64,000 nt of DNA from an uncultured delta proteobacterium (GCA_963713755.1 CAVQMW010000002.1:15637-79636); one strand, 5' to 3'. Numbered from the stretch's first letter, positions 6,264-36,203 are shown. Numbers and translations: made by a program. Notes: generated by a model from the letters alone, not told the origin.

Positions 6264-6295
6264 GTTACATTTTCAAAACGAAAGCTTCGGTAATA

Positions 6296-15882: not shown

Positions 15883-15928
15883 ATACGAGATTTCACCATG
15901 AAAACCAACTCATCTGTTAAGCTGACCC

Positions 15929-21504: not shown

Positions 21505-22155
21505 ATGTTTAATCCGGAAAAGCTGTTAGGCGGCCTGTTGGGGCAAAGTTCGGGGGTTTCCCGGGGTTGGGGCACCAAGGCCACGGTAGGACTGGGCCTG
21601 CTGGGCGTGGCCATGGAGGCCGCGGAACATTTCATGAACAAATCCCAGGCAGCGGCAGGCCCGGGCGCTCCCCCGCCCCCACCCCCGGGCGCTGGAGCCC
21701 CTCCGCCGATCCCTCAATCCGTTGCACCCGGGGGTGCGCCTCCTCCGCCTCCCGGCGCTGCATCCCCGTCGCCGTCCGTTGCCGGGGAACCGGCGCTCCA
21801 AGCCCGGGATGCGGTGCTCTTGATCCGGGCCATGATTGCCGCGGCCCATGCTGACGGCCACATGGACGCCCAGGAGCGGGAGACCATTCTGGGTAAGCTG
21901 GAGAAATTGAATTTGAGCGCCGAAGAGCGGGGATTCATCGGCAACGAGCTTTTGTCGCCCGCCTCCCTGGAGAGCATTGTCAGTCAGGCCGGCACCCCCG
22001 AGATGGCCCGGCAGGTCTATGCCGTATCCCTGATGGCTATCACCGTGGACAGCGAAGCCGAACGCCGGTATCTGGAGCTGTTGGCCCAAAAGCTGGGATT
22101 AGCTCCGGAGCAGGCCGCGGAGATTCAACGCAAGCTGGGACAACCGCCCCAATGA
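21505..22155 (+). CDS. DUF533/TerB-like (tellurite-resistance TerB fold) protein with Pro-rich linker
   Basis: The N-terminus reads LLGGLLGQ. It is followed by a poly-Pro/Ala linker. The C-terminus reads LLIRAMIAAAHADGHMDAQERETIL..MARQVYAVSLMAITVDSEAERRYLELLAQKLGL, which is typical of DUF533/YebE-like proteins. Confidence 0.7.
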   Translation: MFNPEKLLGGLLGQSSGVSRGWGTKATVGLGLLGVAMEAAEHFMNKSQAAAGPGAPPPPPPGAGAPPPIPQSVAPGGAPPPPPGAASPSPSVAGEPALQARDAVLLIRAMIAAAHADGHMDAQERETILGKLEKLNLSAEERGFIGNELLSPASLESIVSQAGTPEMARQVYAVSLMAITVDSEAERRYLELLAQKLGLAPEQAAEIQRKLGQPPQ

Positions 22156-22266
22156 TTCATTCGGCAGCCTGCCGTCTTGATCTTCGCAAAATTCAAATCA
22201 TCTTAAGCCGCAAAGAATGGCAAAGTTTATTCGGTAATTATCGATATTTGGATAAGGAGTCGCCCC

Positions 22267-23253
22267 ATGAGTCAGTGGTATATCAGTTACGACGGAAATC
22301 AGATCGGACCCTTGAGCACCTCCGAGGCCATGGCCCAGGCTGCCCAAAACCCCAATGGCCATGCCTGGCGGGAAGGGTTCGCCCAATGGCTGCCTATTGG
22401 TCAGGTGGCGGAGTTGGGACCGGGCGCTAAGCCGGTTGCGGCGCCGCCCCCCATGGCCGCCCGGGGCGCGGATGAAATCGACTTTAAGATCATGGGCGCC
22501 GAGATGCAGTTCGTGGAGGTGGAGCTTGATCCGGGCGAGAGCGCCGTGGCCGAGGCGGGCGCCATGATGTACAAGGACAGCAGCATTGAGATGGAGACCA
22601 TTTTCGGCGACGGCTCTCCCTCCAGTGGCGGCGGCGGTTTCATGGACAAACTAATGGGTGCCGGCAAGCGGGTGCTCACCGGCGAGAGCCTATTTATGAC
22701 CGTCTTCACCCACACCGGCCAGGGCAAGGCCCACGTGGCTTTCGGCGCGCCCTACCCGGGTAATATTATTCCCGTGACCCTCACCCATGTCGGCGGCCAG
22801 CTGATCTGCCAGAAAGACAGCTTCCTGTGTGCCGCCAAGGGCGTCTCTATCGGCGTTTACCTGCAGCGCAAGATCCTCACCGGGCTTTTCGGCGGCGAGG
22901 GCTTTATCATGCAGAAGCTGGAGGGTGACGGAATCTGTTTTCTGCACGCCGGGGGAACCGTGGTGGAGCGCCAAATGGAGGCCGGCGAAGTCCTGCACGT
23001 CGATACCGGTTGCGTGGTTGCCTTTGAACCGTCGGTGAAGTTCGATATCCAACAGGCCGGGGGCATCAAAACCAGCCTCTTCGGCGGCGAGGGGCTTTTC
23101 TTTGCGGTGCTGCAAGGCCCGGGCCGGGTTTGGCTTCAATCCCTGCCCTTCTCCCGCTTGGCCGGCCGCATGCTGGCGGCCCGCCGTCCCGGAGGCGCCA
23201 AGGGCGAGGGCTCCATACTCGGCCCCTTGGGGGATCTGCTGGACGGGCGCTAA
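22267..23253 (+). CDS. GYF_2 domain + TIGR00266/AIM24 family protein
   Basis: The N-terminal WYISYDGNQIGPLS...GHAWREGFAQWLPI is the GYF_2 (DUF4339) pattern. The remainder (EMQFVEVELDPGESAVAEAGAMMY..FGGEGFIMQKLEGDG..FGGEGLFFAVLQGPGRVWLQSLP) is the AIM24/DUF124 pattern. Confidence 0.75.
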   Translation: MSQWYISYDGNQIGPLSTSEAMAQAAQNPNGHAWREGFAQWLPIGQVAELGPGAKPVAAPPPMAARGADEIDFKIMGAEMQFVEVELDPGESAVAEAGAMMYKDSSIEMETIFGDGSPSSGGGGFMDKLMGAGKRVLTGESLFMTVFTHTGQGKAHVAFGAPYPGNIIPVTLTHVGGQLICQKDSFLCAAKGVSIGVYLQRKILTGLFGGEGFIMQKLEGDGICFLHAGGTVVERQMEAGEVLHVDTGCVVAFEPSVKFDIQQAGGIKTSLFGGEGLFFAVLQGPGRVWLQSLPFSRLAGRMLAARRPGGAKGEGSILGPLGDLLDGR

Positions 23254-23409
23254 TTGCCATTGTAGGTGAAACCGGCAGGATTGAGTGTTCCGGATAAAAG
23301 GTTTATTATGCAGCGGCGGTTTTTTACCTGTCCGCCCAGGCCACCGCTTAAACTCCACGGATTCAGGCCCGTGCCGGGTGGGGAAATACATAAGCATTGA
23401 AGGATTGGA

Positions 23410-24258
23410 ATGAAGGATATTTACTTTAACGATGGCCGCTATGTCCCGGAAGATGAGTGCTTGATCTCCGTCAATGACCTGGTGGTTTTACGGGGTTACG
23501 GGGTGTTTGATTTTCTGGTCACTTACAACGGCTGCCCCTTTCACCTGGAGGAGCATGTGGCGCGGCTGGAGAATTCGGCCCGCCATGTACGCCTGAAGCT
23601 CAACTACTCCCTGGATGAGATCATGGAGATCGTGGCTCAGACCGTCAGACGCAACCCCCATCACCAGGAGTCAATGATCCGGATCATCCACACCGGGGGC
23701 ATCAGTGCCAACGGGGTCACCCCCGAGGGTAATGGCATTCTGCTGGTTATGGTGAGCCCCAAGAATCACTGGCCGGCCGAGTGGTACCGCGACGGGGCCA
23801 AGGTGGTAACCAACCGCATCGAACGGGTGCTGCCCGATGCCAAGAGCACCAACTACCTGTCGGCGGTGTATGCCATGGAGGCGGCCCACGCCCAGGGGGC
23901 CATCGAATCGATCTATGTGGATCGAAACCAGCGGGTATTGGAAGGCACCACCAGCAATATCTTCTTCTTCAAAAACGGACGCTTGATTACCGGCGACCAG
24001 GATATTCTGCCCGGCGTGACCCGCAAAGTGGTGCTGGAGCTTCTTCAGGATCGGTTCGAGCTCGATCTGCGGGATGTGCAAATGGAGGAGATCAAGGCCA
24101 TGGATGAGGTGTTTATCACCTCTTCCACCAAAGAGGTGGTGCCCATTGTCCAGGTGGACCGGGCCACCGTGGGAAGTGGCCGCCCTGGTCCCCTGACCCG
24201 CAAGGTGATGGAGATCTTCCACGGCTACACCGCCCAGTACGGCCAGGGAACGGCCTAA
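23410..24258 (+). CDS. class IV (fold type IV) aminotransferase, D-amino-acid or branched-chain type
   Basis: Reads RGYGVFDF, a PLP-lysine context PDAKSTNYLSAV, EGTTSNIFFFKNG and ILPGVTR. The stop TAA abuts the ATG of alr. Confidence 0.85.
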   Translation: MKDIYFNDGRYVPEDECLISVNDLVVLRGYGVFDFLVTYNGCPFHLEEHVARLENSARHVRLKLNYSLDEIMEIVAQTVRRNPHHQESMIRIIHTGGISANGVTPEGNGILLVMVSPKNHWPAEWYRDGAKVVTNRIERVLPDAKSTNYLSAVYAMEAAHAQGAIESIYVDRNQRVLEGTTSNIFFFKNGRLITGDQDILPGVTRKVVLELLQDRFELDLRDVQMEEIKAMDEVFITSSTKEVVPIVQVDRATVGSGRPGPLTRKVMEIFHGYTAQYGQGTA

Positions 24259-25425
24259 ATGGCCCCGGCAGAGGCGGTAACCTGGGCGGAAGTCGATCTG
24301 CAAGCGCTGGCCCACAATGTCCGCGAACTGAGACGAGTCGCCAATCCCCAGGCGGCGCTGATGGCCGTGGTCAAGGCCAATGGTTACGGCCACGGGGCCC
24401 TGGAAGTCGCCCGAGTGGCCCTGGCCCAGGGGGCGCGTTATTTGGCCGTGGCCCGTTTTGATGAGGCCTTCAATCTGCGTAAGGCCGGGATCGAGGCTCC
24501 GCTCCTGCTCTTTGGCGCAACCTTGCCCGACCAGGTGGATTACCTCTGCCGCCACGATATCCGCGCCGCGGTGAACTCCCTGGCGGGGGCGCGGCAGCTT
24601 TCCGTCGCGGCCGCGGCCCGTAACCGGACTCTAAAGGTTCACCTCAAGATCGACACCGGCATGGGCCGCCTGGGGCTTTGGGCCGAGGGGCTGGCCGGTA
24701 CGCCGGGCAACGATTCCTCCGAGGGCGCTTCAATGGAAACCATTGGGACCATTGCCGTCCTGCCCGGATTGGAGCTAGAGGGTATTTTCACCCATTTTGC
24801 CAATGCCGACTCCCGGAACACGGCTCACACCCGGGGGCAGTTTGCGCTCTTCGAGCAATTGCTCGCCCAACTGGCCGCCCACGGCATTCAGATTTCGCTG
24901 CGCCACGCGGCCAATAGCGCGGCCCTGCTGGCCATGCCCGAGACCCATCTTAATCTGGTGCGCCCCGGCATCGCCCTCTACGGCTTGTGGCCTTCCGAAG
25001 AGATGAAGCGCCACTCCATAGATCTGCGGCCGGCCCTGACCCTCAAATCCACGGTGATCCAGGTCAAGTCGGTGGATCGCGGTTTTGCCGTGAGCTACGG
25101 CAGCACCCACGTCACTTCCCGCCCCACGCGCATCGCCACCATCCCCATCGGATATGCCGACGGCTACAGCCGGCGATTATCCGCCCAGGGGCATATGTTG
25201 GTGCGCGGGGTGCGCGCCCCCATTTTAGGGCGGGTCTGCATGGACCTGACCCTCATCGATGTGGGCCGCATTCCCGATGTCTCACCCGGAGATGAGGTGG
25301 TGCTGATCGGTCGCCAGGGCGCGGAAGAGATCAGCGCCGATGAGATCGCCCGCCGCCTGGCAACCATCAACTACGAAGTGGTCTCCGCTCTGACGGCCCG
25401 GATACCCCGGGTTTACCGCAATTAG
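24259..25425 (+). CDS. alr: alanine racemase
   Basis: Has the PLP-lysine motif AVVKANGYGHG, plus THFANAD, RPGIALYG, SYG and GRVCMD blocks. Confidence 0.9.
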   Translation: MAPAEAVTWAEVDLQALAHNVRELRRVANPQAALMAVVKANGYGHGALEVARVALAQGARYLAVARFDEAFNLRKAGIEAPLLLFGATLPDQVDYLCRHDIRAAVNSLAGARQLSVAAAARNRTLKVHLKIDTGMGRLGLWAEGLAGTPGNDSSEGASMETIGTIAVLPGLELEGIFTHFANADSRNTAHTRGQFALFEQLLAQLAAHGIQISLRHAANSAALLAMPETHLNLVRPGIALYGLWPSEEMKRHSIDLRPALTLKSTVIQVKSVDRGFAVSYGSTHVTSRPTRIATIPIGYADGYSRRLSAQGHMLVRGVRAPILGRVCMDLTLIDVGRIPDVSPGDEVVLIGRQGAEEISADEIARRLATINYEVVSALTARIPRVYRN

Positions 25426-25432
25426 GCCGCTA

Positions 25433-26677
25433 ATGACCCTGCAATCCAACCATCCTGGGATCGATTGGCAGGCGGGCAGTTGGCAGGCCGCAGATCCGGC
25501 CCCATCCGCCGCCGAGATCGTGATCGCAGGAGATTGGGCGCCCATCCGTCGCTTTGCCCCGCTCATGGACCAAACTCCGACGGCGGTGTACGGGGATCTG
25601 CTGCCGGAACTGCGGGCAGGCGACCTGCGGATTGTCAACCTGGAGTGCCCCTTGAGCACTGCCGGCGCACCCCTGGTCAAAAGCGGAACCGTTCTCAGGG
25701 GCGACCCCGGCCAGGTGCGGGGGTTGACGACGGTGCCCTTCGAGGTGGCGGCCCTGGCCAACAACCACAGCTTCGATTACGGCAGTCAGGCCTTCCGCCA
25801 GACCCGCGAGCTGCTCCATGAACATCGCATTAGAACCGTGGGCGCCGGAATGAACGCCGCCGAAGCCGCAGAACCCCTCATCGTCAGCGTCAATAGACTG
25901 AAAATCGGGATTATCAATTTCAGTGAAGGCGAGGACCTCACCGCGGCCGAAGGGGAGCGGCCGGGGGTCATGGGCTGGGCGATTGAGCGCCTGGCGGCCA
26001 TCATCCAAAAACTGCGCGCCAAGGTTCAGGGCGTGGTGGTGATCTGCCATGGCGGCCTGGAGTATCTCCCCTTTCCGCCGCCCTATGTGGCCGCGGCCCT
26101 GCAGCGCCTGGCGGATGCCGGGGCCGACCTGATCATCGGCCACCATCCCCATGTTCCCCAGGGCATCGAGATCCACGGCGGGGTGCCCATCTGCTACAGT
26201 TTGGGCAACTTCGTGTTCTACCAGCCCACCGATCTGCTCTTTCGCAAGCTCGGCTATCTGGTCCGCGCGGGGTTCAACTCCCGGGGCCTGGCGCGGTTGC
26301 AGGTGCTGCCCTATGAAATCGCTTCCCAAGGGCTTCGCCTGCTGAAGGATCACCCCAGGGCCTGGGCCTTCAAACAGCTCCAGGAGATCTCCGCTCCCCT
26401 GGCACGTCCGGAGGGCATCCGCCAGGCCTGGAACGGATTTTTAGCTTACAACGGCGTCGAAGGATTTCGCGGCGAGGTGGCCAAAATCATGGATCAGCTG
26501 ACCCGGGACCCGGCCAAGGGTGCCGCCATGTTCCGTAATCGGCTCACCACGCTCCAGCACCGCCACCACTGGCTGGACACCCTGACCCGCCTCATGGAGC
26601 ACAAGTTGGACGAAGCCCCCCCCTGGGCCAGAAGCTGGGCCGAGGAGTACTTTACCCGCAAGCAGTGGCCGGTGTAG
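25433..26677 (+). CDS. CapA-family (PGA_cap) metallophosphoesterase-like protein
   Basis: Reads NLECPLS, LANNHSFDYG, GHHPHVPQGIE and YSLGNFVF, which are the CapA family blocks. No N-terminal signal or TM segment is obvious. Confidence 0.8.
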   Translation: MTLQSNHPGIDWQAGSWQAADPAPSAAEIVIAGDWAPIRRFAPLMDQTPTAVYGDLLPELRAGDLRIVNLECPLSTAGAPLVKSGTVLRGDPGQVRGLTTVPFEVAALANNHSFDYGSQAFRQTRELLHEHRIRTVGAGMNAAEAAEPLIVSVNRLKIGIINFSEGEDLTAAEGERPGVMGWAIERLAAIIQKLRAKVQGVVVICHGGLEYLPFPPPYVAAALQRLADAGADLIIGHHPHVPQGIEIHGGVPICYSLGNFVFYQPTDLLFRKLGYLVRAGFNSRGLARLQVLPYEIASQGLRLLKDHPRAWAFKQLQEISAPLARPEGIRQAWNGFLAYNGVEGFRGEVAKIMDQLTRDPAKGAAMFRNRLTTLQHRHHWLDTLTRLMEHKLDEAPPWARSWAEEYFTRKQWPV

Positions 26678-26689
26678 AAATGAGCCGCC

Positions 26690-27625
26690 ATGAAGCCTGA
26701 CCTCAGTGCGCAGATCCGCAAGCGGTTGACCCAGGAATGCCTGACCGTACTCATCGCCGACTCGGGCTTGGGGGGGCTATCGGTCTGCGCCGCCATCGCC
26801 GCGGAATTGAAGGAGCGCCCCCTTACCCCCCAGGTTTCGTTGATTTACTACAACGCCTGGCCGGACAAAAATTTCGGCTACAACCGCCTGGCGGACGATG
26901 ACGCGCGGATCGGGATATTCGAACAAGCCCTGGCCGGCATGGCGCGCTTTGCCCCAGACCTGATCCTGCTCGCCTGCAACACCCTCTCCGTGCTCTATCC
27001 CCGAACCCAATTCAGCCGGTCCACGGGGATACCGGTGGTCGATATTATCGCTTTTGGCACCGATATGATCCGGGATGCCTTGGCCTCCGATTCCCTCTCC
27101 CGGGCCTTGATTTTGGGAACCCGGACCACCATCGCGGCTCGGACCCATGTCGAGGGGCTAGCGGCCCAAGGCATAGATCCGCGGCGGCTACACGCCCAGC
27201 CGTGCCATCTGCTGGCCACAGAGATCGAAAAGGGGCCAGCAAGTTCTTCAGTAGCCGCCCTGGTGAACCAATTCATGGGCAAAGCTGTTCGGCGGATCGG
27301 TCCGTGGCCCGGGGATCTTTTCGCCGCCTTGTGCTGCACCCATTTCGGCTATATCGGGGAGCTGATTGAGGCGCACCTGACGGAGCTGTTGCCCGGGCGC
27401 GCCATCACCCTGCTCAATCCCAATGAATCTATGGCGCGATTTCTCTTCGGTCTGGACCGTGGCCGGGGTAGGGGGGCGAGCCGTGTTGCGGTTCGAGTAG
27501 TTTCCAAAATCCCTTGGGAAACCGGGCGCCTGGCGGCCATCGGATCTCTGCTGTCGCCACTCTCCCCGGAAACCGTAACGGCGTTGCAGGCCTATGAGCA
27601 GATCCCCGATCTGTTTACCTTCTGA
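26690..27625 (+). CDS. Asp/Glu racemase family protein, glutamate-racemase paralog
   Basis: Reads IADSGLGGLSV (compare MurI DSGVGGL). The two catalytic-Cys contexts are LACNTLS and CCTHFGY. At 311 aa it is longer than typical MurI. Confidence 0.7.
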   Translation: MKPDLSAQIRKRLTQECLTVLIADSGLGGLSVCAAIAAELKERPLTPQVSLIYYNAWPDKNFGYNRLADDDARIGIFEQALAGMARFAPDLILLACNTLSVLYPRTQFSRSTGIPVVDIIAFGTDMIRDALASDSLSRALILGTRTTIAARTHVEGLAAQGIDPRRLHAQPCHLLATEIEKGPASSSVAALVNQFMGKAVRRIGPWPGDLFAALCCTHFGYIGELIEAHLTELLPGRAITLLNPNESMARFLFGLDRGRGRGASRVAVRVVSKIPWETGRLAAIGSLLSPLSPETVTALQAYEQIPDLFTF

Positions 27626-27696
27626 CCCGCCGCAAGAAAGGCCGGCGGCGTGGATGGGCACGTTCGACTCACCTTCAGCGTTCAGGAGCATAGGTT

Positions 27697-28689
27697 ATGA
27701 AACGGGTGTTGATCATCACCGGAGCGGCGGGAGACGCCCAGGGCTGGGGCGATCTCGGGGTCACCGAGACCCTGCGTGATGCCCTTTTGGCTGGCGGCTA
27801 CGAGGCGCGGATTGAGTTTGTGCGCAGCCTGGATGATTTCAAGCGGGCCCTGGATACGCGCACATTCGATATTGTCTGGAGCGCCCTTTACCACATCGGT
27901 GCTGAAGCCGACATCGTGGGGCAGAATCTTGATGAAGCGGCCTGGCTGGCGGATATCCTCGACCGCCGCCGGATTCCCTATATCGGTCCCAGTGCCCGGA
28001 CCATGCGCCAGCTCATCGACAAGAGCTGGACCCACCGAATTTTAAGCAACGCGGACATCGCCGTGCCCAACCATCACGAGGTGCCGGCAGGCCAGCAACT
28101 CCCCGAAGTCGCCTTTCCGGCCTTTGTCAAACCGAGCTGCGAATCCCGTTCCGTGGGGATCAGCGATGCCAGCGTGGTCCATGACCGCAACCAACTGGCC
28201 CGCCAGGTGGCCGAGGTCCATCAGCGCTACCGCCAGCCGGCTCTCATCGAGGCCTATCTCCCCGGACCGGAGTACACCGTGCTGATGCTGGCCAACGGCT
28301 CCGGACAGGAGTTTCTCACCGGAGTGGTGGAGGTGGAGGCGTGCTATTACGGTAAATACCCCATTTTGCGGGCCGATATGCGCGGCGTGGGCATCACCCG
28401 CATCGCCATTCCCGAAACCCGGGTTCAAGAGGCGGCCGAGTTGTGCCGCCAGGCGGTGGGCGCCCTCAATTGTCTGGACCACGTGCGGGTGGATATGCGG
28501 GTGGATGGCCAGGGAAAGCTGCGCATCATCGAAGTCAACGGAATTCCGGGACTCAAACCCGGCAAGAGCTGGAGCCCCCAGATCTACTCCCTCTACCACC
28601 CCTTAGCGGAGGGCGCCCTGGCCGAGTACCGGCAACTGGTCCGGCGGATTGTGGCGTCAAGCCTGGAACGCTATGGGATCAACGGATGA
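27697..28689 (+). CDS. ATP-grasp ligase, D-alanine--D-alanine ligase-like
   Basis: Reads IPYIGPS, DKSWTHRIL, FVKPSCESRSVGIS, IEAYLPGPEYTV and RVDMRVDGQGKLRIIEVNGIPGL, matching the Ddl-family architecture. An AGGAG RBS lies upstream. Confidence 0.8.
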   Translation: MKRVLIITGAAGDAQGWGDLGVTETLRDALLAGGYEARIEFVRSLDDFKRALDTRTFDIVWSALYHIGAEADIVGQNLDEAAWLADILDRRRIPYIGPSARTMRQLIDKSWTHRILSNADIAVPNHHEVPAGQQLPEVAFPAFVKPSCESRSVGISDASVVHDRNQLARQVAEVHQRYRQPALIEAYLPGPEYTVLMLANGSGQEFLTGVVEVEACYYGKYPILRADMRGVGITRIAIPETRVQEAAELCRQAVGALNCLDHVRVDMRVDGQGKLRIIEVNGIPGLKPGKSWSPQIYSLYHPLAEGALAEYRQLVRRIVASSLERYGING

Positions 28690-29552
28690 AGATCCCCGCC
28701 TATTCCGACCTTACGGCCGATTTGGGCACCCATGAGCGGGTGGCCGGCCGCGACCCCCTGGGGGGCTTTGCCTATGACTTGGATCTCACCTACCCTGGGC
28801 TGGCCGTGGCCATCCACGCCGGACACGGGGTGCGGCCCGAGTTGCGAGGGCTTATGACCATCTCCGATCAGGCGCGCCTGGCGGAGGAGGATCCGGCCAC
28901 GGACCAGTTCATCCGGGAGTGCCCCAGCGCCCTCTGGGGGCTCGATTCCCGGGCGGAGTACGACCTGAACCGCCCCCCGGAATCGGCAATTCCGCTGACT
29001 GCCGAAATGTTCTGGGGCCTGCAGGTGTACCGGCAGCGCCCGGATGAGGCTGCAATCCGGCGCAGCCTGGAGAAATACCAGGCCTTTTACCGCTTTGTGA
29101 AAAGTCTGCTCCAGGTGCTGCTGGCGCGCCACCGAACCTGCGTGGTGTACGATATCCACGCCTACAACCTGAAGCGGCAGCGGGCCAAGGGCCATCCCGA
29201 CCCCCCGCTGTTCAACCTGGGGACCCGGCTGTTGGACCGCCGCCGCTGGCGCGGGGCCATCGAGAGATGGCTTTCGGAACTGGCGGTAATCCCCATTACG
29301 GGGACCCCGGTCAGCGTGATGGAAAACGATGTGTTCGGCGGCCAGGGGGAATTTTGCCGCCGCCTGGGCCAGTGGGATCCCAATATTTTGGTCTTGCCCA
29401 CGGAGATCGCCAAAATTTATATGGATGAAGTGAGCGGAAGGCTCTACCCTGATATAGTTGACGCCATCCGGCGGGGCCTGGCCCGGGCGGTGACCCGCCA
29501 TGGCCGCCGGTTTCAGCAGCCCCAGACACGACCCCAACCCCGGCGTCTCTAA
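28686..29552 (+). CDS. N-formylglutamate amidohydrolase (FGase, PF05013)-family amidohydrolase
   Basis: I place the start at ATG 28686, which forms an ATGA overlap with the upstream stop, not at the track's 28443. The blocks VAIHAGHG, EEDPATDQF, DSRAEYDLNRP, YQAFY, VVYDIHAYN and FNLGT follow the order of FGase family motifs (H.G / D..TD / SR...D.NR / Y..yH / D.HS / .lG). Confidence 0.5.
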   Translation: MKIPAYSDLTADLGTHERVAGRDPLGGFAYDLDLTYPGLAVAIHAGHGVRPELRGLMTISDQARLAEEDPATDQFIRECPSALWGLDSRAEYDLNRPPESAIPLTAEMFWGLQVYRQRPDEAAIRRSLEKYQAFYRFVKSLLQVLLARHRTCVVYDIHAYNLKRQRAKGHPDPPLFNLGTRLLDRRRWRGAIERWLSELAVIPITGTPVSVMENDVFGGQGEFCRRLGQWDPNILVLPTEIAKIYMDEVSGRLYPDIVDAIRRGLARAVTRHGRRFQQPQTRPQPRRL

Positions 29553-29564
29553 CGGAGGATCCCC

Positions 29565-31457
29565 ATGGGCAGTCAGTTGGATACGAATTTGATGCACGCC
29601 TACCCGGAGAAGGTGGTGGCCCTGGAAGCGGCCCTGGGCCGCTTGAAAAACGGCAGCCGCATCTTCATCGGCACCGGCTGCGGCGAGCCCCAGCATCTGA
29701 TTCACGGACTGGTCAAGGATCAGCGGCTCCAGGATATCATGATCTACCAGATGCTCGCCTTTACCCTGAACGACTATCTGCTCCAGGATGATTTTCTCAA
29801 TCGCTTTGCCCTGAAGCTCTTTTTCGTCAGCCATCCCATGCGCCGGGCGGCCTTTGAAGGCAAAATCGATTATATTCCCACTTACCTCTCCGAGATTCCC
29901 GCCTTTTTCCGAAAGGACCAAATTCGCCTGGACGCAGCCCTGGTGCAGGTGACGCCTCCGGACCGCTTTGGCTACTGCAGTCTGGGCGTCTCCGTGGATG
30001 TGACCCGGGAGGCGGTGCGCCAGGCCAAAGTGGTCATCGCCCAGGTCAACCCGCGTATGCCTCGCACCCTGGGGGACAGCTTCGTGCATGTCAAAGACCT
30101 GGATTGCCTGGTGCCCTTTGAAGAGGATCTGGTGGAGAACAACCCCGCCGGCCCCCAATCGGTGGTGGCCCAGCGCATCGCCCATTATGTTTCCGAACTG
30201 ATCGATGACGGCAGCACCCTTCAGGTGGGCTACGGGCGGTTACCCTATGCCATCCTGCAATATCTTACCGACAAGAACGATCTAGGGGTGCACACCCACA
30301 TGATCACCGACGCCTTTATTCCCCTGTTCGAAAAAGGGGTGATCACCAACCGCCGAAAGAACTTGCTCACCGATCGCGCGGTGGCCGCCTTCTGCGTAGG
30401 CTCCAAATCGACCTATGACTATCTGGACGACAATCCCTGCTTCTTTTTCGGTGCGGCGGATTTCGTCAACAATCCCGGGGTGGTGGCCCGCAATGACAAC
30501 TTTATCTCCATCAGTTCCGCTCTGGAGGTGGATCTGACCGGTCAGGTCTGCTCCGATTCCCTGGGCCGGATGTTTTTCAGCGGTACCGGCGATCAGGCCA
30601 ATTTCATCCGCGGGGCGGCCCTCTCCAAGGGCGGGCTCTCCATCATCGCCCTGCCTTCCACGGCCAAAAACGGAACCGTGTCGCGAATTGCGGCCAATTT
30701 GAGCGCCGGCGCCGGATTGGCCACCCTGCGGGCCGATGTGAACTTCGTGGTCACCGAATACGGCATCGCCCAGTTGAAAGGCAAAAGCATCTACCAGCGG
30801 GCCGTGGAGCTGGCCCAGATCGCCCATCCCGACTACCGGGCAGGCCTGATCGAGGCGGCCAAGCGCAACAACCTGATCTTTGCCGACCAGCTGCCGCCGC
30901 CCGCCGAAGATCTCATGTTCATTGAGGATTACAAGAGCCGGCTGGAGCTTGCCGGCGGCCGGGTGATGAGCGTGCGGCCCTTGCTGCCGTCGGATGAAAT
31001 CGCCTATCGCAATTTTTTCTACTCCCTGGAAAAAGAGACCATCTACCTGCGCTTTTTCCAGCACATCTCGGTCTTTTCGCGCAAGATGGCCCAGAGCCAT
31101 TGGGCCACCCTGGACTACCGCCGCAGCATTTCCCTGATCGGCCTAGTGCGCCACAAGGGAAACCAGGAGATCATGGCGATCGGGACTTATATGGGGGGCG
31201 ATGACGCCCGGGCGGAGGTGGCCTTTGTGGTACGGGAGGATTTTCAGGGGCAGGGCGTGGCCAGCTACCTGCTGGGCCAATTGGAAACCATTGCCAGGGC
31301 CAACGGTTACCAGGGCTTCTTCGCCTCGATGCTGCCCCAAAACAAAGGCATGCTGCGGGTGTTTGAAAAGCGCTATCCCCAGGCGATTTTCAAAACCAGC
31401 TCCGGTGAAACCGCAGTGGTGATGAATTTTGCCGGGTCAACAGTCCAGGAGCCGTAA
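29565..31457 (+). CDS. acetyl-CoA hydrolase/transferase family domain fused to C-terminal GNAT acetyltransferase
   Basis: The N-terminal 430 aa or so reads IFIGTGCGEPQ, LQVGYG and SALEVDLTGQVCSDS, which is the CoA-transferase pattern. The C-terminal 170 aa or so reads VRPLLPSD..YLRFF..VVREDFQGQGVASYLLGQLETIARANG, which is GNAT motif A. Confidence 0.8.
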   Translation: MGSQLDTNLMHAYPEKVVALEAALGRLKNGSRIFIGTGCGEPQHLIHGLVKDQRLQDIMIYQMLAFTLNDYLLQDDFLNRFALKLFFVSHPMRRAAFEGKIDYIPTYLSEIPAFFRKDQIRLDAALVQVTPPDRFGYCSLGVSVDVTREAVRQAKVVIAQVNPRMPRTLGDSFVHVKDLDCLVPFEEDLVENNPAGPQSVVAQRIAHYVSELIDDGSTLQVGYGRLPYAILQYLTDKNDLGVHTHMITDAFIPLFEKGVITNRRKNLLTDRAVAAFCVGSKSTYDYLDDNPCFFFGAADFVNNPGVVARNDNFISISSALEVDLTGQVCSDSLGRMFFSGTGDQANFIRGAALSKGGLSIIALPSTAKNGTVSRIAANLSAGAGLATLRADVNFVVTEYGIAQLKGKSIYQRAVELAQIAHPDYRAGLIEAAKRNNLIFADQLPPPAEDLMFIEDYKSRLELAGGRVMSVRPLLPSDEIAYRNFFYSLEKETIYLRFFQHISVFSRKMAQSHWATLDYRRSISLIGLVRHKGNQEIMAIGTYMGGDDARAEVAFVVREDFQGQGVASYLLGQLETIARANGYQGFFASMLPQNKGMLRVFEKRYPQAIFKTSSGETAVVMNFAGSTVQEP

Positions 31458-31615
31458 TGAATATAGCCGACCCCGCCATTCAGGAAGCCCTGGACACCAT
31501 TATCCATTTTATCCGCGAAACCCGCCGGATCGACCCCACGCCGGAGCAGCTGGCCGCTGCCCTGAAACGCTACTTCGTGTTAAAGGAAATCGCCGATCAC
31601 ATCGATCTGGCCTGA
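31457..31615 (+). CDS. small hypothetical protein (52 aa), translationally coupled
   Basis: Below the ORF-track size cutoff. Its ATG overlaps the upstream TAA (TAATG). It reads MNIADPAIQEALDTIIHFIRETRRIDPTPEQLAAALKRYFVLKEIADHIDLA. The stop lies 13 nt before the MFS start. Confidence 0.4.
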   Translation: MNIADPAIQEALDTIIHFIRETRRIDPTPEQLAAALKRYFVLKEIADHIDLA

Positions 31616-31628
31616 CCATGAACCGCTG

Positions 31629-32828
31629 ATGCCCAGACGCGCCTACGCCATCATCATCGCCGGGTTCTTCACGGTTTCCATCGCCTATTCCATCCGCTAC
31701 GGCTATGGCCTGCTGCTCCCCGAGATGCTGCCGTCCTGGGGAATTTCCAAAACCGAGGCCGGGATCATCTACGCGGTCTACTTCGCGGTCTACCTGGCCG
31801 GCACTCCCCTGGTGGGGGCTTTGGCCGACCGCTACGACAACCGCTTCATCTTGACCCTTTTTACCCTGATCCTGGCGGCGGGTGCGGCCCTCATGGCCCG
31901 GGCCGCTTCGGTGTGGCAGGCGACCCTCTTTTTCTCCCTGGCCGGTTTGGGCAATGCCGCCTGTTGGGTGCCGGTTGCGGCTTTGGTGCAGCGCTGGGTG
32001 CCGGCGCAGCGCAAGGGAATTGCCCTCTCGGTGGTCACCATGGGGGTGGGCTTCGGAGTACCCTTGTGGAGCCTGGTGCTGCCCCTGGTGGTGGCGCGCT
32101 TCGGGTGGCAGGCGGGCTGGCTCTGCCTGGGCGGCTTTGGGGCGGCGGTGGCCCTGCTCAATGGGATCCTGGTGCGCAATTCCCCGGCCCAAGAGCGATC
32201 CGTGCTCCTCTCGGAGCCAAATCCACTCCCCTCCCAGACCCCCTATCTCCATTTGTTCCGGGATCCCAAGCTGTGGATTGTCGGCAGCGCCTATCTTTTC
32301 GTGGGCTTCAATGTGCTGGTGCCCTTTACCTTCATGGGGGTTTACGCCCGGGAAGGGCTCCACTTTTCCTATGCGGTCTCCACCCGCTTTGTGGCCCTGA
32401 TCACCCTTTTCGGCATTGTGAGCCAACTGGTGCTGGGCGCCTGGTCCGACCGGGTGGGACGTATTCCCATCATGATGATCTGTGGCAGTTTGATGGGGCT
32501 GGGGTGCCTGGCCATGACCCTGTTTCAGGATCTTGGGGCCTTGTATGGCGCGGCCATGCTTTACGGTTTGGGCTACGGGGCGGTGTGGCCCATGTACGGA
32601 ACCGCGGCTTCGGATTTTTTCCCCAAAGGGAACACGGCCGGCGTGGTGGGGATCTGGACGGTGTTCCTGGGGCTGGGATCCATTGCCTCCCCGGTGCTGT
32701 GCGGCTATATCATCGATGTCACGGGGGGCTACCGGGGCGTATTCCTGCTGGGGCTTGCCACGGGCGCTCTGTCGGCGATTCTGCTCCTGCCCATGCTGAA
32801 AAAACCGGTTTTAATCCAACCTGAATAG
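31629..32828 (+). CDS. MFS transporter
   Basis: 399 aa with about 12 hydrophobic helices. It has an MFS-like loop motif GALADRYDNRF between TM2 and TM3. Confidence 0.85.
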   Translation: MPRRAYAIIIAGFFTVSIAYSIRYGYGLLLPEMLPSWGISKTEAGIIYAVYFAVYLAGTPLVGALADRYDNRFILTLFTLILAAGAALMARAASVWQATLFFSLAGLGNAACWVPVAALVQRWVPAQRKGIALSVVTMGVGFGVPLWSLVLPLVVARFGWQAGWLCLGGFGAAVALLNGILVRNSPAQERSVLLSEPNPLPSQTPYLHLFRDPKLWIVGSAYLFVGFNVLVPFTFMGVYAREGLHFSYAVSTRFVALITLFGIVSQLVLGAWSDRVGRIPIMMICGSLMGLGCLAMTLFQDLGALYGAAMLYGLGYGAVWPMYGTAASDFFPKGNTAGVVGIWTVFLGLGSIASPVLCGYIIDVTGGYRGVFLLGLATGALSAILLLPMLKKPVLIQPE

Positions 32829-32866
32829 GGGCCTTGGAGTTATTGTCAAGGGCCGGGGCTTGGGGG

Positions 32867-33742
32867 TTATTGGGTGCCCACAAAGAAGGCCCGGAAGCGA
32901 TCCGGCGGCCAAGTCAAAGCGCGGTCGATCTCTTGAAGCAACCGCTCCTTATCTTGAGGCAATTCCCCCGCCAAGTTTAGATAATTGGTGTAGTGATCGC
33001 TGGCCAGCAGGGTGGTGCAATCGATGCGGCCGAGCAGCAGGCGGGTTTCCGTCAACACTCCATGGGGAGAGAGCAGCTCGAAGCGGCCCTTTTCGATCTG
33101 GTGCAGCAGGAGGGTGCTGAGTTTGGGCACCAGGGTTCGCAAGCGCACAAAATCGGGGCCAATGGCGTTAATGGCCGCGGCGGTATGCCGGGCATGGTTT
33201 TCCCAGCGCTCCACGCCCCCCAAACCAAGGATCACATAGAGGCTCAGCTCGATACCGGCGGCGATAACCATTCGACCGGCGGCAATCTGCTCAGCGGCGG
33301 TGGTGCCTTTTTTCACCTGGCGCAGCACCGGGTTATCCCCGCTCTCCAAACCCACATGGATGCGGCTTAGCCCGGCCGCTTTGAGGAGTTTCAGCTCGGC
33401 CGGCCCCTTGGCTGCGATATAGGGCGAGGAGCCGTAGACCGTGATCCGTTGCAGGTTGGGAAATGTGGTCTTGGCGTAGCGGCAGATGGCGACCAGTTCC
33501 CCGGTGGGCATGGCGATGGTGTTGCCGGCGGGAAAGAACAGCGTTCGGACCCTATCGCCGTATTGCCCGCGGGCGCGGTCCAGATCCTGACAGATTTCCG
33601 CCACTGGCCGAACCCGATAGGGCGGGCCCTTTTTGTAGACCATGCAGAAAGAACACTTGTTGTGGGGGCAGCCCACCGTGGCTTGAATCAATAAGCTGTC
33701 CGCTTCGCTGGGCGGGCGGTATATGGGGCCTTCGTAGCGCAA
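32867..33742 (-). CDS. radical SAM protein (Elp3-type small radical SAM domain)
   Basis: The N-terminus reads GPIYRPPSEADSLLIQATVGCPHNKCSFC (a CX4CX2C cluster motif). This is followed by FFPAGNT and RIHVGLESG blocks. Confidence 0.8.
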   Translation of the reverse strand: MRYEGPIYRPPSEADSLLIQATVGCPHNKCSFCMVYKKGPPYRVRPVAEICQDLDRARGQYGDRVRTLFFPAGNTIAMPTGELVAICRYAKTTFPNLQRITVYGSSPYIAAKGPAELKLLKAAGLSRIHVGLESGDNPVLRQVKKGTTAAEQIAAGRMVIAAGIELSLYVILGLGGVERWENHARHTAAAINAIGPDFVRLRTLVPKLSTLLLHQIEKGRFELLSPHGVLTETRLLLGRIDCTTLLASDHYTNYLNLAGELPQDKERLLQEIDRALTWPPDRFRAFFVGTQ

Positions 33743-33825
33743 AGGTCAAACACCTGATGAAGATGAGTTTTTGCGGCACAGACTAACGAAAATAGCTCTG
33801 ATAAATGACATGGGTGATACTTATT

Positions 33826-33860
33826 CTTGAAAATCGTCATGTCAACTGACGATTTTCAAG
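33826..33860. promoter_or_regulatory. perfect 14-bp inverted repeat (candidate operator) in divergent intergenic region
   Basis: Reads CTTGAAAATCGTCA-tgtcaac-TGACGATTTTCAAG. It lies between the radical SAM gene (-) and the acyl-CoA dehydrogenase gene (+). No U-tract follows on either strand. Confidence 0.5.
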
Positions 33861-34097
33861 TCTATCCGTCTGTCTGTTTGACAAGATACAGATGTTTTGC
33901 GATGTAGGCTGACAGTCAAGCCTTTATGAACTGCAACAGGCGTTACACTTCCAAATCTCCTGGCCTGAAAGTCGGCGAATATGCGGATTTTCCTGCGGTA
34001 CTGGATTTCATGGCCGGCTGGGTCTGAGCGGATCCGATTCTGGCCACTTCGAGGTATGAACAGTAGTTGTCGATGCAGGTGAAACGGAGGAAACCAG

Positions 34098-35435: not shown

Positions 35436-35489
35436 ATTGAACCTCTTGCGGGTTGCGCCACCCACAGCTGACCCTGAAAGCGATCGGCC

Positions 35490-36203
35490 ATGAGCAGGGT
35501 GACGGAAGAGATTATTCTCAGATTGCGCGCTTTAGGGAGTGAGGAGATTGCGGCCCATTCCCAGCGCTTTTTCAAAACCGGCAAGGGAGAGTATGCTGAG
35601 GGGGACCTGTTTCTCGGCATTCGGGTGCCGGTGGTGCGCAAATGTATAAGAGAATTTCAGGACATCTCCCTGGAAGACACCCTCATATTGCTCAGATCCC
35701 AGTATCACGAAGCCCGGCTGCTGGCCCTGCTCCTGCTGGTCGCCAGGTATGGCAATGCCCAAACTCCGGCAGATCAAAGAAAAGTCTATCGCGCCTACCT
35801 GGACCACACTGCCTATATCAACAACTGGGATCTGGTGGACTGTTCGGCGCCCCACATTGCCGGTGCCTATCTGTTCTCCAGGAAGCGGGCGCCCCTCTAT
35901 AAGCTGGCCGGGTCCCATAGCCTCTGGGAGCGGCGGATTGCCGTGCTCTCAACCTTCTATTTTATCCGAAAATCTGACTACGCCGACACCCTGGCTATTT
36001 CCAAATTGCTGCTCCTGGACTCCGAAGACCTGATTCACAAGGCGGTAGGCTGGATGCTGCGGGAAGTGGGTAAGCGAAACCGGCAGGCCGAGGAGGATTT
36101 TTTACTTCAGCACTACAGAGCCATGCCCCGCACCATGCTGCGCTACGCCATCGAGAGGTTCCCGGAAGCCGATCGCCAGGGCTACCTGAAAGGTACCAAG
36201 TGA
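35490..36203 (+). CDS. DNA alkylation repair protein (AlkD/HEAT-like repeat family)
   Basis: Reads RFFKTGKGEYAEGDLFLGIRVPVVRK, NNWDLVD, WERRIAVL and AVGWMLRE, which are the PF08713-type blocks. Confidence 0.8.
   Translation: MSRVTEEIILRLRALGSEEIAAHSQRFFKTGKGEYAEGDLFLGIRVPVVRKCIREFQDISLEDTLILLRSQYHEARLLALLLLVARYGNAQTPADQRKVYRAYLDHTAYINNWDLVDCSAPHIAGAYLFSRKRAPLYKLAGSHSLWERRIAVLSTFYFIRKSDYADTLAISKLLLLDSEDLIHKAVGWMLREVGKRNRQAEEDFLLQHYRAMPRTMLRYAIERFPEADRQGYLKGTK

What the first reader, a model, noticed from the sequence alone, without database searches (positions are those of the whole stretch)
23410..32828. Ten-gene co-directional operon coupling D-amino-acid supply to a Ddl-like ATP-grasp ligase, FGase-type amidohydrolase, CapA and a CoA-transferase/GNAT fusion: candidate undescribed D-amino-acid peptide system
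Seen in sequence: ten genes lie on one strand with almost no spacing.
- The stop TAA at 24256-24258 abuts the ATG at 24259.
- Other gaps are 7, 12, 71, 12 and 13 nt.
- There is an ATGA overlap at 28686-28689 and a TAATG overlap at 31455-31459.
- The gene order is: class IV aminotransferase, alanine racemase, CapA-like, Glu-racemase paralog, Ddl-like ATP-grasp, FGase-family amidohydrolase, acetyl-CoA hydrolase/transferase fused to GNAT, a 52-aa ORF, and an MFS transporter.

Established knowledge:
- Alr, MurI-type racemases and fold-type-IV aminotransferases make and interconvert D-Ala and D-Glu.
- Ddl-family ATP-grasp enzymes ligate D-amino acids.
- CapA belongs to the CapBCA poly-gamma-glutamate machinery.
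- GNAT plus ATP-grasp is the logic of the Ngg enzyme, which makes the dipeptide osmolyte NAGGN.

Inference: the enzymes that normally feed peptidoglycan are duplicated or co-opted here into a dedicated module. The module would ligate D-amino acids (ATP-grasp), N-acylate the product (GNAT charged via the CoA-transferase domain), trim or recycle it (FGase-like and CapA-like hydrolases) and export it (MFS). I do not recognise this combination as a described pathway.
Basis: partly seen in the sequence, partly recalled or inferred. Interest (0 to 1): 0.75.

Follow-up and report, generated by a model that had tools for sequence, protein, structure and literature searches.

The report
Conserved D-glutamate ligase gene module
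A tight operon in a sulfate-reducer genome contains a conserved, uncharacterised six-enzyme set (two racemases, a D-amino-acid transaminase, a Ddl-like ligase, a CapA-like enzyme and an amidohydrolase) that most likely makes and trims a small D-glutamate-containing peptide; the acyltransferase fusion and the transporter next to it are local add-ons.

Summary
The sequence observation holds, with one miscount. There are nine (not ten) co-directional ORFs at 23410-32828, with exactly the gaps and overlaps described, and every predicted Pfam family is found.

Conservation splits the operon.
- g3 (CapA-like), g4 (MurI-like racemase) and g5 (Ddl-fold ATP-grasp) co-occur in 43 of 43 related loci with full flanks.
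- g1 (fold-IV aminotransferase) and g2 (alanine racemase) are each present in 26 of 43, and g6 (FGase) in 20 of 43.
- Gene order is shuffled in other phyla, so g1-g6 form a functional module.
- g7 (CoA-transferase/GNAT) is present in 1 of 43 and occurs elsewhere in unrelated contexts. g8 has no homologue. g9 (MFS) is present in 0 of 43.

g5 is not a D-Ala-D-Ala ligase. It keeps the ATP/Mg residues, but DdlB Ser150 and Tyr216 are arginines and it scores far below the Ddl cut-offs. Distant g5 homologues sit beside bona fide glutamate racemases, including on an archaeal-looking contig.

My reading is a soluble D-glutamate module: D-Glu supply, ATP-dependent ligation, CapA/MslH-type processing and FGase-type hydrolysis. 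The product is unknown and I found no publication describing it.

The parts
23281..23309 (+). sigma-70-like promoter match about 100 nt upstream of g1 (weak evidence only)
   Evidence: TTGAGT-17-TATTAT, 9/12 matches. Five such sites were found in the region against 3.1 expected, so this is not significant on its own.
23410..24258 (+). g1: fold-type IV aminotransferase, D-amino-acid-transaminase-like (accessory, 26/43 loci)
   Evidence: PF01063 at 164.9 bits. 31% identity to Bacillus D-AAT 1DAA, with catalytic Lys aligned (DAKSTN against DIKSLN) and EGTTSN against EGSSSN. It has FDFLVTY where archaeal BCATs have FEGIRAY. It scores below the NCBIfam D-AAT and BCAT cut-offs.
24259..25425 (+). g2: alanine racemase (accessory, 26/43 loci)
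   Evidence: TIGR00492 at 389.3 bits against a cut-off of 168; PF01168 with PF00842.
25433..26677 (+). g3: soluble CapA/PGA_cap-family metalloenzyme (core, 43/43)
   Evidence: PF09587 at 196 bits. The only solved relatives are the MslH epimerase structures. The MslH residues E44, N87, H88, D91, H259 and H295 align with identical residues; the D11 counterpart (D34 of 'AGDWAP') is inferred from the motif; H261 is Gly in g3. No hydrophobic anchor.
26690..27625 (+). g4: divergent MurI-type racemase (core, 43/43)
   Evidence: PF01177 at 31.9 bits; TIGR00067 at 41 against a cut-off of 146.65. The DSG, ACNT and CTH motifs, including both catalytic Cys, are conserved. The 'PYG' region is replaced by an insertion.
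27697..28689 (+). g5: Ddl-fold ATP-grasp ligase, not a D-Ala-D-Ala ligase (core)
   Evidence: PF07478 at 69 bits. Ddl NCBIfam models give 88 against a cut-off of 243. The AF2 model (pLDDT 89.6) matches Ddl structures at TM 0.73-0.75 and about 22% identity. ATP/Mg residues are kept. DdlB S150 becomes R151 and Y216 becomes R225. The N-terminal domain is not alignable by profile.
28686..29552 (+). g6: FGase-family metal amidohydrolase (accessory, 20/43)
   Evidence: PF05013 at 65.4 bits. The AF2 model (pLDDT 91.9) matches N-formylglutamate amidohydrolase 2q7s at TM 0.68-0.72, then M14 carboxypeptidases distantly. Family members from other lineages lie inside the same module.
29565..31457 (+). g7: acetyl-CoA hydrolase/transferase fused to GNAT; co-transcribed here but not part of the conserved module
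   Evidence: PF02550, PF13336 and PF00583. Present in 1/43 loci. Homologues at 65-84% identity are abundant and sit in unrelated contexts.
31457..31615 (+). g8: 52-aa ORF of doubtful reality
   Evidence: No Pfam or NCBIfam hit. No tblastn match with E below 0.6 in 80 related loci.
31629..32828 (+). g9: MFS transporter (lactate / oxalate-formate-like); local add-on
   Evidence: PF07690 at 188 bits; the best NCBIfam hits are SfMCT and the OFA family, both below cut-off. Present in 0/43 related loci.

Best explanation
Genes g1-g6 form a self-contained, cytosolic D-glutamate peptide module. g7-g9 are lineage-specific passengers in the same transcript.

Proposed steps, with their basis:
1. D-Glu supply. 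g4, a MurI-type two-cysteine racemase, makes D-Glu directly. Where present, g2 (alanine racemase) plus g1 (D-amino-acid transaminase) make it indirectly: L-Ala to D-Ala, then D-Ala + 2-oxoglutarate to D-Glu + pyruvate. The enzyme families are shown; the substrates are inferred.
2. Ligation. g5, a Ddl-fold ATP-grasp enzyme with intact ATP/Mg/acyl-phosphate residues but two arginines in place of DdlB Ser150 and Tyr216, ligates D-Glu to a second amino acid or to a growing glutamyl chain. The fold and residues are shown; the substrates are inferred.
3. Processing. g3, a soluble CapA/PGA_cap metalloenzyme that keeps the MslH catalytic residues, acts on the residue of that product that carries the carboxylate, most likely by epimerisation. 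This is inferred from the only characterised family member.
4. Trimming. g6, an FGase-type amidohydrolase, cleaves an N-acyl-glutamate-type bond to trim or recycle the product (inferred).

The product is unknown. A short D-Glu-containing di- or oligopeptide is the most economical guess.
For: Synteny:
- g3, g4 and g5 are present in 43/43 loci that have at least 5.5 kb on both flanks. g1 and g2 are each in 26/43 and g6 in 20/43.
- The order is permuted (g5-g6-g1-g2-g3-g4) in Spirochaetota, Leptospirales and other contigs, and g4-g5-g3 occurs elsewhere.
- Flanking genes differ from locus to locus, and no transporter or regulator is conserved across loci.

Glutamate theme:
- g4 keeps the MurI motifs DSG, CNT and CTH.
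- Distant g5 homologues lie next to proteins that pass the glutamate racemase equivalog model (235 and 265 bits against a cut-off of 146.65) in two very different contexts, one on an archaeal-looking contig.
- The g6 fold is that of N-formylglutamate amidohydrolase. g3 belongs to the poly-gamma-glutamate CapA family.
- Sixteen loci add alanine dehydrogenase and a HisC-like aminotransferase upstream, which fits feeding L-Ala into the indirect D-Glu route.

Ligase:
- The catalytic residues K109, K145, E185, E192, R264, D266, E279 and N281 are conserved. R151 is invariant and R225 nearly invariant, replacing DdlB S150 and Y216.

Location:
- g1-g8 have no membrane segment.

Precedent:
- The epimerase precedent for PF09587 and its residues comes from PMC10406935 and PMC8179263.
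Against: - No substrate was tested. D-Glu is inferred from family resemblance and neighbours.
- g4 scores far below the MurI cut-off and has lost the PYG motif, so it may act on a different or derivatised amino acid.
- Having g4 together with g1 and g2 is redundant if all three only make D-Glu.
- A ligase and a hydrolase in one operon could instead indicate a cycle or a salvage route.
- The sixteen loci carry a HutC/PhnF-type GntR regulator and alanine dehydrogenase, which is a catabolic flavour.
- Three loci have g5 without g3 and g4 nearby.
- The CapA family has only one characterised member, so 'epimerase' is a weak inference. H261 of MslH is not conserved in g3.
Confidence: 0.45

Rival explanations
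1. ATP-driven stereoinversion cycle. g5 attaches an amino acid (Glu) as the C-terminal residue of a dipeptide or N-acyl compound. g3 epimerises that residue. g6 hydrolyses one stereoisomer. The net result is an irreversible L-to-D or D-to-L conversion. This would be analogous in logic, but not homologous, to the N-succinyl-amino-acid racemase pathway and the N-acetyl-D-glutamate (DgcN/DgcA) pathway; both of these are recalled from my own knowledge and were not checked here.
For: - The characterised enzymes of the three families (Ddl, MslH, FGase) act at a residue with a free alpha-carboxylate: MslH epimerises a C-terminal residue whose carboxylate sits at the metal site, FGase has the fold of an N-acyl-glutamate amidohydrolase, and Ddl-type ligases leave a free C-terminal carboxylate.
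- The module is self-contained, with no transporter.
Against: - g6 is missing from more than half of the loci, so the cycle would often be open.
- A free-amino-acid racemase (g4) is always present, which makes an ATP-costly inversion hard to justify.
Confidence: 0.15
2. Salvage or catabolism of D-amino-acid peptides, such as peptidoglycan stem-peptide fragments from sediment necromass. g6 and g3 would open or epimerise D-Glu peptides. g4, g1 and g2 (plus alanine dehydrogenase in some loci) would funnel D-Glu and D-Ala into 2-oxoglutarate and pyruvate.
For: - Sixteen loci place a HutC/PhnF-type GntR regulator, alanine dehydrogenase and a second aminotransferase in the same operon.
- A few loci adjoin a TRAP transporter and an ADP-forming acyl-CoA synthetase.
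- D-AAT, Alr and Ald together form a complete D-Glu deamination route.
Against: - The ATP-consuming ligase is the most conserved gene, and it has no role in a hydrolytic salvage route.
- No transporter or regulator is conserved across lineages.
- A distant homologue pair sits in a biosynthetic-looking cluster.
Confidence: 0.2
3. One reading: all nine genes form one pathway that ligates D-amino acids, N-acylates the product through the CoA-transferase/GNAT fusion, and exports it through the MFS protein.
For: - In this window g7-g9 follow g6 with gaps of 12 nt, a 1-nt overlap and 13 nt, and no terminator-like site lies between them.
- g7 follows g5 directly in L028, and a 34-35% identical fusion lies 3-4 kb away on the opposite strand in four Desulfobacter-type loci.
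Against: - g7 is in 1/43 loci and g9 in 0/43; g8 has no homologue.
- Close homologues of g7 are found in unrelated neighbourhoods.
- The nearest relative has an SDR gene after g6.
Confidence: 0.1
4. These are simply the housekeeping alr, murI and ddl genes that supply peptidoglycan precursors.
For: - g2 passes the alanine racemase equivalog model.
- No other alr, murI or ddl is visible in the 64-kb window.
Against: - g5 and g4 score far below the Ddl and MurI cut-offs.
- The Ddl substrate residues are changed.
- Two MAGs carry two copies of the module on separate contigs (L040 and L072; L054 and L067).
- Many loci lack alr.
- A homologous ligase-racemase pair occurs on an archaeal-looking contig.
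Confidence: 0.03

Closest known systems
Poly-gamma-glutamate toolkit of Bacillus (PgsB/CapB ligase, PgsC, PgsA/CapA, RacE/Glr racemase, indirect D-Glu route via Alr and D-AAT, PGA hydrolases). The pathway details are from my own knowledge; the proposal that CapA is an epimerase is from PMC8179263.
   Same: - A CapA-family protein, a glutamate-type racemase, Alr with D-AAT, an ATP-dependent amide ligase and a glutamyl amidohydrolase occur together.
- Every part has a glutamate connection.
   Different: - The ligase is a Ddl-fold ATP-grasp enzyme, not a Mur-ligase-type PgsB.
- There is no PgsC or PgsE.
- The CapA-like protein has no membrane anchor, so the system is cytosolic.
- The hydrolase belongs to the FGase family.
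D-alanine-D-alanine ligase (Ddl) and VanA-type ligases
   Same: - Three-domain Ddl fold (TM 0.73-0.75).
- Conserved ATP, Mg and acyl-phosphate residues.
   Different: - About 22% identity.
- NCBIfam score of 88 against a cut-off of 243.
- DdlB S150 is Arg and Y216 is Arg.
- The N-terminal domain is unalignable by profile.
- An 8-residue insertion follows Gly285 in the MAFFT alignment; hhalign closes most of this gap.
- There is no mur/fts context.
MslH, lasso-peptide C-terminal Trp epimerase (PF09587; PDB 8GQ9)
   Same: - Same family.
- The His/Asp dyads and most metal ligands are conserved in g3.
   Different: - NCBIfam MslH model gives 71 against a cut-off of 700.
- H261 is Gly in g3.
- There is no lasso-peptide precursor or RRE partner.
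- The substrate here would be a small peptide.
Racemase plus ATP-grasp D-amino-acid ligase pairs, such as the Enterococcus faecium aspartate racemase with D-aspartate ligase Aslfm (from my own knowledge, not tested here)
   Same: A PF01177 racemase encoded next to an ATP-grasp ligase that uses its D-product. The same pairing recurs for distant g5 homologues.
   Different: - That system decorates peptidoglycan precursors with D-Asp.
- Here the racemase is MurI-like, a CapA-like enzyme is always present, and one homologous pair is on an archaeal-looking contig.
   Same: A GNAT and an ATP-grasp ligase lie in one operon in this window.
   Different: - They are not fused.
- The GNAT is fused to a CoA-transferase and is not co-conserved with the ligase (1/43).
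- There is no AsnO-type amidotransferase.

Membership tests
D-alanine-D-alanine ligase (EC 6.3.2.4) | Ddl three-domain ATP-grasp fold with ATP/Mg/acyl-phosphate residues (DdlB K97, K144, E180, E187, R255, D257, E270, N272) | tested here: met
   Foldseek TM 0.73-0.75 to Ddl structures. All listed residues are conserved.
D-alanine-D-alanine ligase (EC 6.3.2.4) | D-Ala-binding triad Glu15/Ser150/Tyr216, and a score above the curated Ddl models | tested here: not met
   S150 becomes invariant R151 and Y216 becomes R225 in two independent alignments. Glu15 cannot be mapped because the N-terminal domain is not aligned by hhalign. The best Ddl model gives 88 bits against a cut-off of 243.
Glutamate racemase MurI | Two catalytic cysteines in CNT and CTH motifs plus the N-terminal DSG motif | tested here: met
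   DSGLGG, ACNT and CCTH are conserved across 69 family members.
Glutamate racemase MurI | Score above the TIGR00067 equivalog cut-off; canonical 'DTARxPYG' substrate loop | tested here: not met
   41 bits against a cut-off of 146.65. The loop is replaced by 'NAWPDKNFGYNRL...'.
CapA/PgsA of the poly-gamma-glutamate synthase | PF09587 domain | tested here: met
   196 bits against a gathering score of 27.
CapA/PgsA of the poly-gamma-glutamate synthase | Membrane anchor, and adjacent capB/pgsB and capC/pgsC genes | tested here: not met
   No hydrophobic segment. No such neighbours appear in the annotated window ORFs or among the recurrent gene families of the 80 loci.
MslH-type peptide epimerase | Catalytic dyads His88/Asp91 and His295/Asp11; metal ligands Glu44, Asn87, His259 and His261 | tested here: inconclusive
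   Seven of the eight residues have counterparts in g3. Six align identically, the D11 counterpart is inferred from the AGDW motif, and H261 is Gly. The NCBIfam MslH model gives 71 against a cut-off of 700. These residues are also typical of the whole PF09587 family, so they do not prove epimerase activity.
N-formylglutamate amidohydrolase (HutG) | PF05013 domain and FGase fold | tested here: met
   65.4 bits against a gathering score of 28.9. TM 0.68-0.72 to 2q7s.
N-formylglutamate amidohydrolase (HutG) | Histidine-utilisation (hut) gene context, or a curated HutG model hit | tested here: not met
   No NCBIfam hit. The neighbours are the module genes, not hut genes.
D-amino-acid aminotransferase | Catalytic Lys145, the EGSSSN-type loop, and a Y/F-E/D-x-x-x-x-Y strand instead of the BCAT FEGIRAY | tested here: met
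   Alignment to 1DAA at 31% identity, and comparison with BCAT structures.
D-amino-acid aminotransferase | Arg98/His100 carboxylate trap; score above TIGR01121 | tested here: not met
   These positions align to E/N or to gaps. The score is 158.8 against a cut-off of 277.45.
Alanine racemase | Score above the TIGR00492 equivalog cut-off, with both Alr domains | tested here: met
   389.3 against a cut-off of 168; PF01168 with PF00842.
Ngg / NAGGN synthase | GNAT and ATP-grasp in one polypeptide, conserved together | tested here: not met
   They are separate proteins, and g7 is present in 1/43 related loci.
Housekeeping peptidoglycan precursor genes | These being the sole alr, murI and ddl copies in the genome | not testable with these tools
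   Only 64 kb of this MAG and about 21-kb pieces of the other genomes could be read.

The most novel reading that the evidence does not exclude
The module is a soluble, PgsB-independent route to D-glutamyl peptides or oligomers. In it a CapA-family enzyme works as a small-peptide epimerase on the product of a Ddl-fold D-glutamate ligase. This would give the first biochemical setting for cytosolic CapA homologues, and a previously unknown D-glutamate metabolite in anaerobic sediment bacteria, with a related ligase-racemase pair in archaea.
Probability: 0.2. Interest if true: 0.75.

Novelty: new variant of a known kind. Interest (0 to 1): 0.55.

Why it matters
D-amino acids outside peptidoglycan are poorly mapped in anaerobes.
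- **Distribution:** a six-enzyme module is conserved in at least 45 species-level genomes of Desulfobacterales, Syntrophales, Desulfomonilia, Spirochaetota, Lentisphaerae and Verrucomicrobiota. This implies an unrecognised D-glutamate metabolite or polymer.
- **CapA family:** it offers a tractable soluble system for finding out what CapA-family proteins do. Their role in poly-gamma-glutamate synthesis is still unproven.
- **Ligase family:** it defines a Ddl-like ligase family with a re-tooled substrate pocket.
- **Experimental access:** a cultured carrier exists, Desulfosarcina alkanivorans PL12 (locus L011).

Tried and rejected
- **Riboswitch or other RNA leader upstream of g1:** none found in an Rfam scan of the window at gathering thresholds.
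- **g8 as a small carrier protein or precursor peptide:** no homologue in 80 loci, and the ORF at the equivalent position in L028 is unrelated.
- **g7 as a module component:** rejected after looking at three homologue neighbourhoods and the nearest relative.
- **Conserved transporter or regulator:** clustering of all ORFs in 80 loci showed only lineage-restricted neighbours, namely GntR/transaldolase-like/Ald/HisC-like, ETF, TRAP, ferritin, ThrRS and CbiZ.
- **Archaeal-type locus L088:** its two unknown ORFs are not divergent CapA or FGase proteins.
- **Literature:** eight searches found no description of this gene combination, and one on PgsBCA structure also found nothing.
- **PghP-like relationship of g6:** this was recalled from memory and was not seen among the top 50 Foldseek hits, so it is not claimed.
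- **P0035 look-up** (Desulfosarcina alkanivorans): it returned nothing.

Full report
**Observation.** The window comes from a Desulfobacterales MAG: the deposited proteins P0001, P0121 and P0241 are identical to g5, g7 and g6 and carry that name. Nine + strand ORFs fill 23410-32828. All junctions are as stated: the 24258/24259 abutment; gaps of 7, 12, 71, 12 and 13 nt; the ATGA overlap at 28686-28689; and a one-base overlap at 31457. Every predicted Pfam family is found. Neighbours on both sides are unrelated: AIM24 and DUF533 upstream, and downstream a convergent radical-SAM gene followed by an acyl-CoA dehydrogenase. The rest of the window is ordinary chromosome, with dnaX, ruvB, tolB, two-component systems and transposases. 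A weak sigma-70-like site lies about 100 nt upstream of g1, and no convincing internal terminator was found.

**What is conserved.** I aligned 22 homologues of g5 (A1) and used the alignment to fetch 80 loci from one-genome-per-species contigs. I then mapped all nine proteins onto them by tblastn and clustered all ORFs.
- Among the 43 loci with at least 5.5 kb on both sides of g5, g3, g4 and g5 are present in 43.
- g1 is in 26, g2 in 26, g6 in 20, g7 in 1 and g9 in 0. g8 has no homologue anywhere.
- The order is usually g1-g2-g3-g4-g5-(g6). It becomes g5-g6-g1-g2-g3-g4 in Spirochaetota and Leptospirales contigs and in two further contigs found through g6, and g4-g5-g3 in three loci.
- Shuffled order with retained membership across Desulfobacterales, Syntrophales, Desulfomonilia, Spirochaetota, Lentisphaerae and Verrucomicrobiota argues for functional coupling of g1-g6.
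- Three loci outside the strict set have g5 without g3 and g4 nearby.
- Flanking genes differ from lineage to lineage (ferritin, ThrRS, CbiZ, ETF, TRAP). No transporter or regulator is conserved across lineages.
- One subgroup of 16 loci adds an upstream GntR (HutC/PhnF-like), a transaldolase-like protein, alanine dehydrogenase and a HisC-like aminotransferase.

**g7-g9 are passengers.**
- The CoA-transferase/GNAT fusion has thousands of relatives, and the best 120 are 65-84% identical with the same architecture.
- Three of these homologues that I looked up sit in unrelated neighbourhoods with no module genes.
- In the nearest relative of the window (g5 72% identical), g6 is followed by a short-chain dehydrogenase.
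- The fusion does follow g5 in L028, and a 34-35% identical version lies 3-4 kb away on the other strand in four loci. A loose link therefore cannot be excluded, but it is not a conserved step.

**The individual enzymes.**
- **g2** passes the alanine racemase equivalog model, 389 against a cut-off of 168.
- **g1** is a fold-IV aminotransferase. It aligns to Bacillus D-AAT (1DAA) at 31% identity, with the catalytic lysine and an EGTTSN loop (D-AAT has EGSSSN). It has FDFLVTY where its best-scoring BCAT structures have FEGIRAY. It lacks the Arg98/His100 carboxylate trap. I call it D-AAT-like and non-canonical.
- **g4** keeps the DSG, CNT and CTH motifs of MurI with both catalytic cysteines. It scores only 41 bits against a cut-off of 146.65, and an insertion replaces the PYG loop.
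- **g5** has a confident model (pLDDT 89.6) that superposes on Ddl structures over its full length, at TM 0.73-0.75 and about 22% identity. Alignments by MAFFT and by hhalign to E. coli DdlB (sequence verified against 2DLN) agree on two points. The ATP/Mg/acyl-phosphate residues are kept, and Ser150 and Tyr216 of the D-Ala-binding triad are replaced by Arg151 (invariant) and Arg225 (nearly invariant). The N-terminal domain, which carries a family-specific GDAQGWGD motif, cannot be aligned by profile, so Glu15 cannot be mapped. It scores 88 bits against a Ddl cut-off of 243. It is a Ddl-fold ligase with a re-tooled, more basic pocket.
- **g5 family size.** A profile search of 1.84 billion representatives found roughly 30 hits scoring above about 225 bits. 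Most of the complete ones align from the N-terminal domain onward. Scores then fall to proteins, many of them about twice as long, that match mainly from profile position about 80 onward.
- **g3** is a PF09587 protein without a membrane anchor. Its only solved relatives are the MslH epimerase structures. The MslH catalytic dyads and three of the four metal ligands have counterparts in g3, but these residues are general to the family.
- **g6** has a confident model (pLDDT 91.9) that matches N-formylglutamate amidohydrolase structures at TM 0.68-0.72, and then only distantly M14 carboxypeptidases.

**Why D-glutamate.** Two divergent g5 homologues (299 and 391 bits to the family profile) are encoded next to racemases that pass the glutamate racemase equivalog model, at 235 and 265 bits against a cut-off of 146.65.
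- One pair is on a contig with Thy1, a wyosine-synthesis radical-SAM gene and an archaeal-type CCA enzyme. Its four-gene operon has a second weak ATP-grasp gene and no CapA.
- The other pair is inside a biosynthetic-looking cluster with a LysA-like decarboxylase, PhzF, two adenylating enzymes and LuxI/LuxR.

So the old, portable unit is 'glutamate racemase plus this ligase'. Several other points support glutamate:
- The g4 motifs are MurI-like.
- Two arginines have been gained in the g5 pocket.
- g6 has the FGase fold.
- g3 belongs to the CapA family.
- Alr plus D-AAT form the classical indirect route to D-Glu (established knowledge).

Taken together, every part of the module has a glutamate connection. 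D-Ala is then more likely an amino-donor intermediate than a building block; this last point is inference.

**Mechanism proposed.**
1. D-Glu is supplied by g4, with or without g2 and g1.
2. g5 ligates it through an acyl-phosphate.
3. g3 processes the carboxylate-bearing residue, with epimerisation favoured on the MslH precedent (PMC10406935, PMC8179263).
4. g6 optionally hydrolyses or trims the product.

All of these proteins are soluble. Only the enzyme families, folds, residues and synteny are shown. The substrates, the linkage and the product are inferred. The catabolic reading draws real support from the GntR/Ald subgroup. It cannot, however, explain why the ATP-consuming ligase is the most conserved gene.

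**Comparison with known systems.** The closest analogue in logic is the poly-gamma-glutamate toolkit: CapA, a Glu racemase, Alr with D-AAT, an amide ligase and a hydrolase. Here the ligase is an ATP-grasp enzyme instead of PgsB, and there are no membrane parts. The closest analogue in architecture is the racemase plus ATP-grasp D-amino-acid ligase pair known from enterococcal D-Asp cross-bridge synthesis (my own knowledge). It is not a member of the Ddl, MurI-equivalog, HutG or Ngg families by their curated criteria; see the membership table.

**Limits.**
- No paper in the searchable library describes this combination, but subscription-only literature was not covered.
- The count of 43 loci includes closely related Desulfobacterales. 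The cross-phylum cases are fewer, about 8 loci.

**Verdict.** Interest is moderate to fairly high. In novelty it is a new variant of known kinds of enzyme cassettes rather than a categorically new system.

Noticed in passing
L088:7952-11651 (contig logan:ERR13319652_115260): An archaeal-looking contig (Thy1, wyosine radical-SAM, archaeal CCA enzyme) carries an overlapping four-gene operon: a weak ATP-grasp-like gene (350 aa), a Ddl-like g5 homologue (349 aa), a bona fide glutamate racemase (286 aa) and an unknown 257-aa protein. A D-Glu ligase system in an organism that probably lacks murein is unexplained.
   Followed up: partly
L090:4895-16589 (JGI 3300085377 Ga0679466_0002236): A g5 homologue and a glutamate racemase are embedded in a natural-product-like cluster. 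It contains a radical-SAM gene, a TylF methyltransferase, a LysA-like decarboxylase, a cupin, PhzF, two AMP-binding enzymes, an 83-aa ORF and an amidohydrolase. A LuxI/LuxR pair lies upstream.
   Followed up: partly
L002:614-4959 and 15 other loci (for example L003, L010, L012): A subgroup of modules is preceded, in the same operon, by a HutC/PhnF-type GntR regulator, a divergent transaldolase-like protein (103 bits against a cut-off of 367), alanine dehydrogenase and a HisC-like aminotransferase. The role of the transaldolase-like gene is unexplained.
   Followed up: partly
window 29565-31457; L082, L083, L084: The acetyl-CoA hydrolase/transferase-GNAT fusion is a highly conserved (65-84% identity) protein family, named mostly from Desulfobacterales relatives, found in varied contexts. 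In two of the three neighbourhoods examined it sits next to a universal stress protein. Its GNAT domain weakly resembles mycobacterial Pat. It is possibly a lineage-specific protein acyltransferase.
   Followed up: partly
window 1598-1688 (+): Rfam group II intron match (43.5 bits against a gathering score of 40), overlapped by ORF 1502-2005 and just downstream of ORF 810-1544, both on the + strand.
   Followed up: no
window 12434-15723: Two divergent transposase-type ORFs. One is a DDE_Tnp_1 gene on the - strand. The other is a 688-aa + strand protein that combines a DruA-like N-terminal region with a DDE_5 endonuclease domain.
   Followed up: no
window 1-16000 versus 22000-36000: A marked G+C step: 45-51% in the first 16 kb (TctA/TctC transporter, transposases) against 59-64% across the module and its neighbours.
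   Followed up: no
window 34098-35435 (+): An acyl-CoA dehydrogenase with a C-terminal rubredoxin-like (RUBY_RBDX) domain. A 450-aa antisense ORF with no family hit shadows it.
   Followed up: no
L070:6123-7112, L060:2066-3055, L039:8808-11893: Exceptions to the conserved triad. g5 homologues (55-58% identity) stand alone, or with only g1 and g6, in unrelated contexts. One is next to an integrase-GntR remnant.
   Followed up: partly
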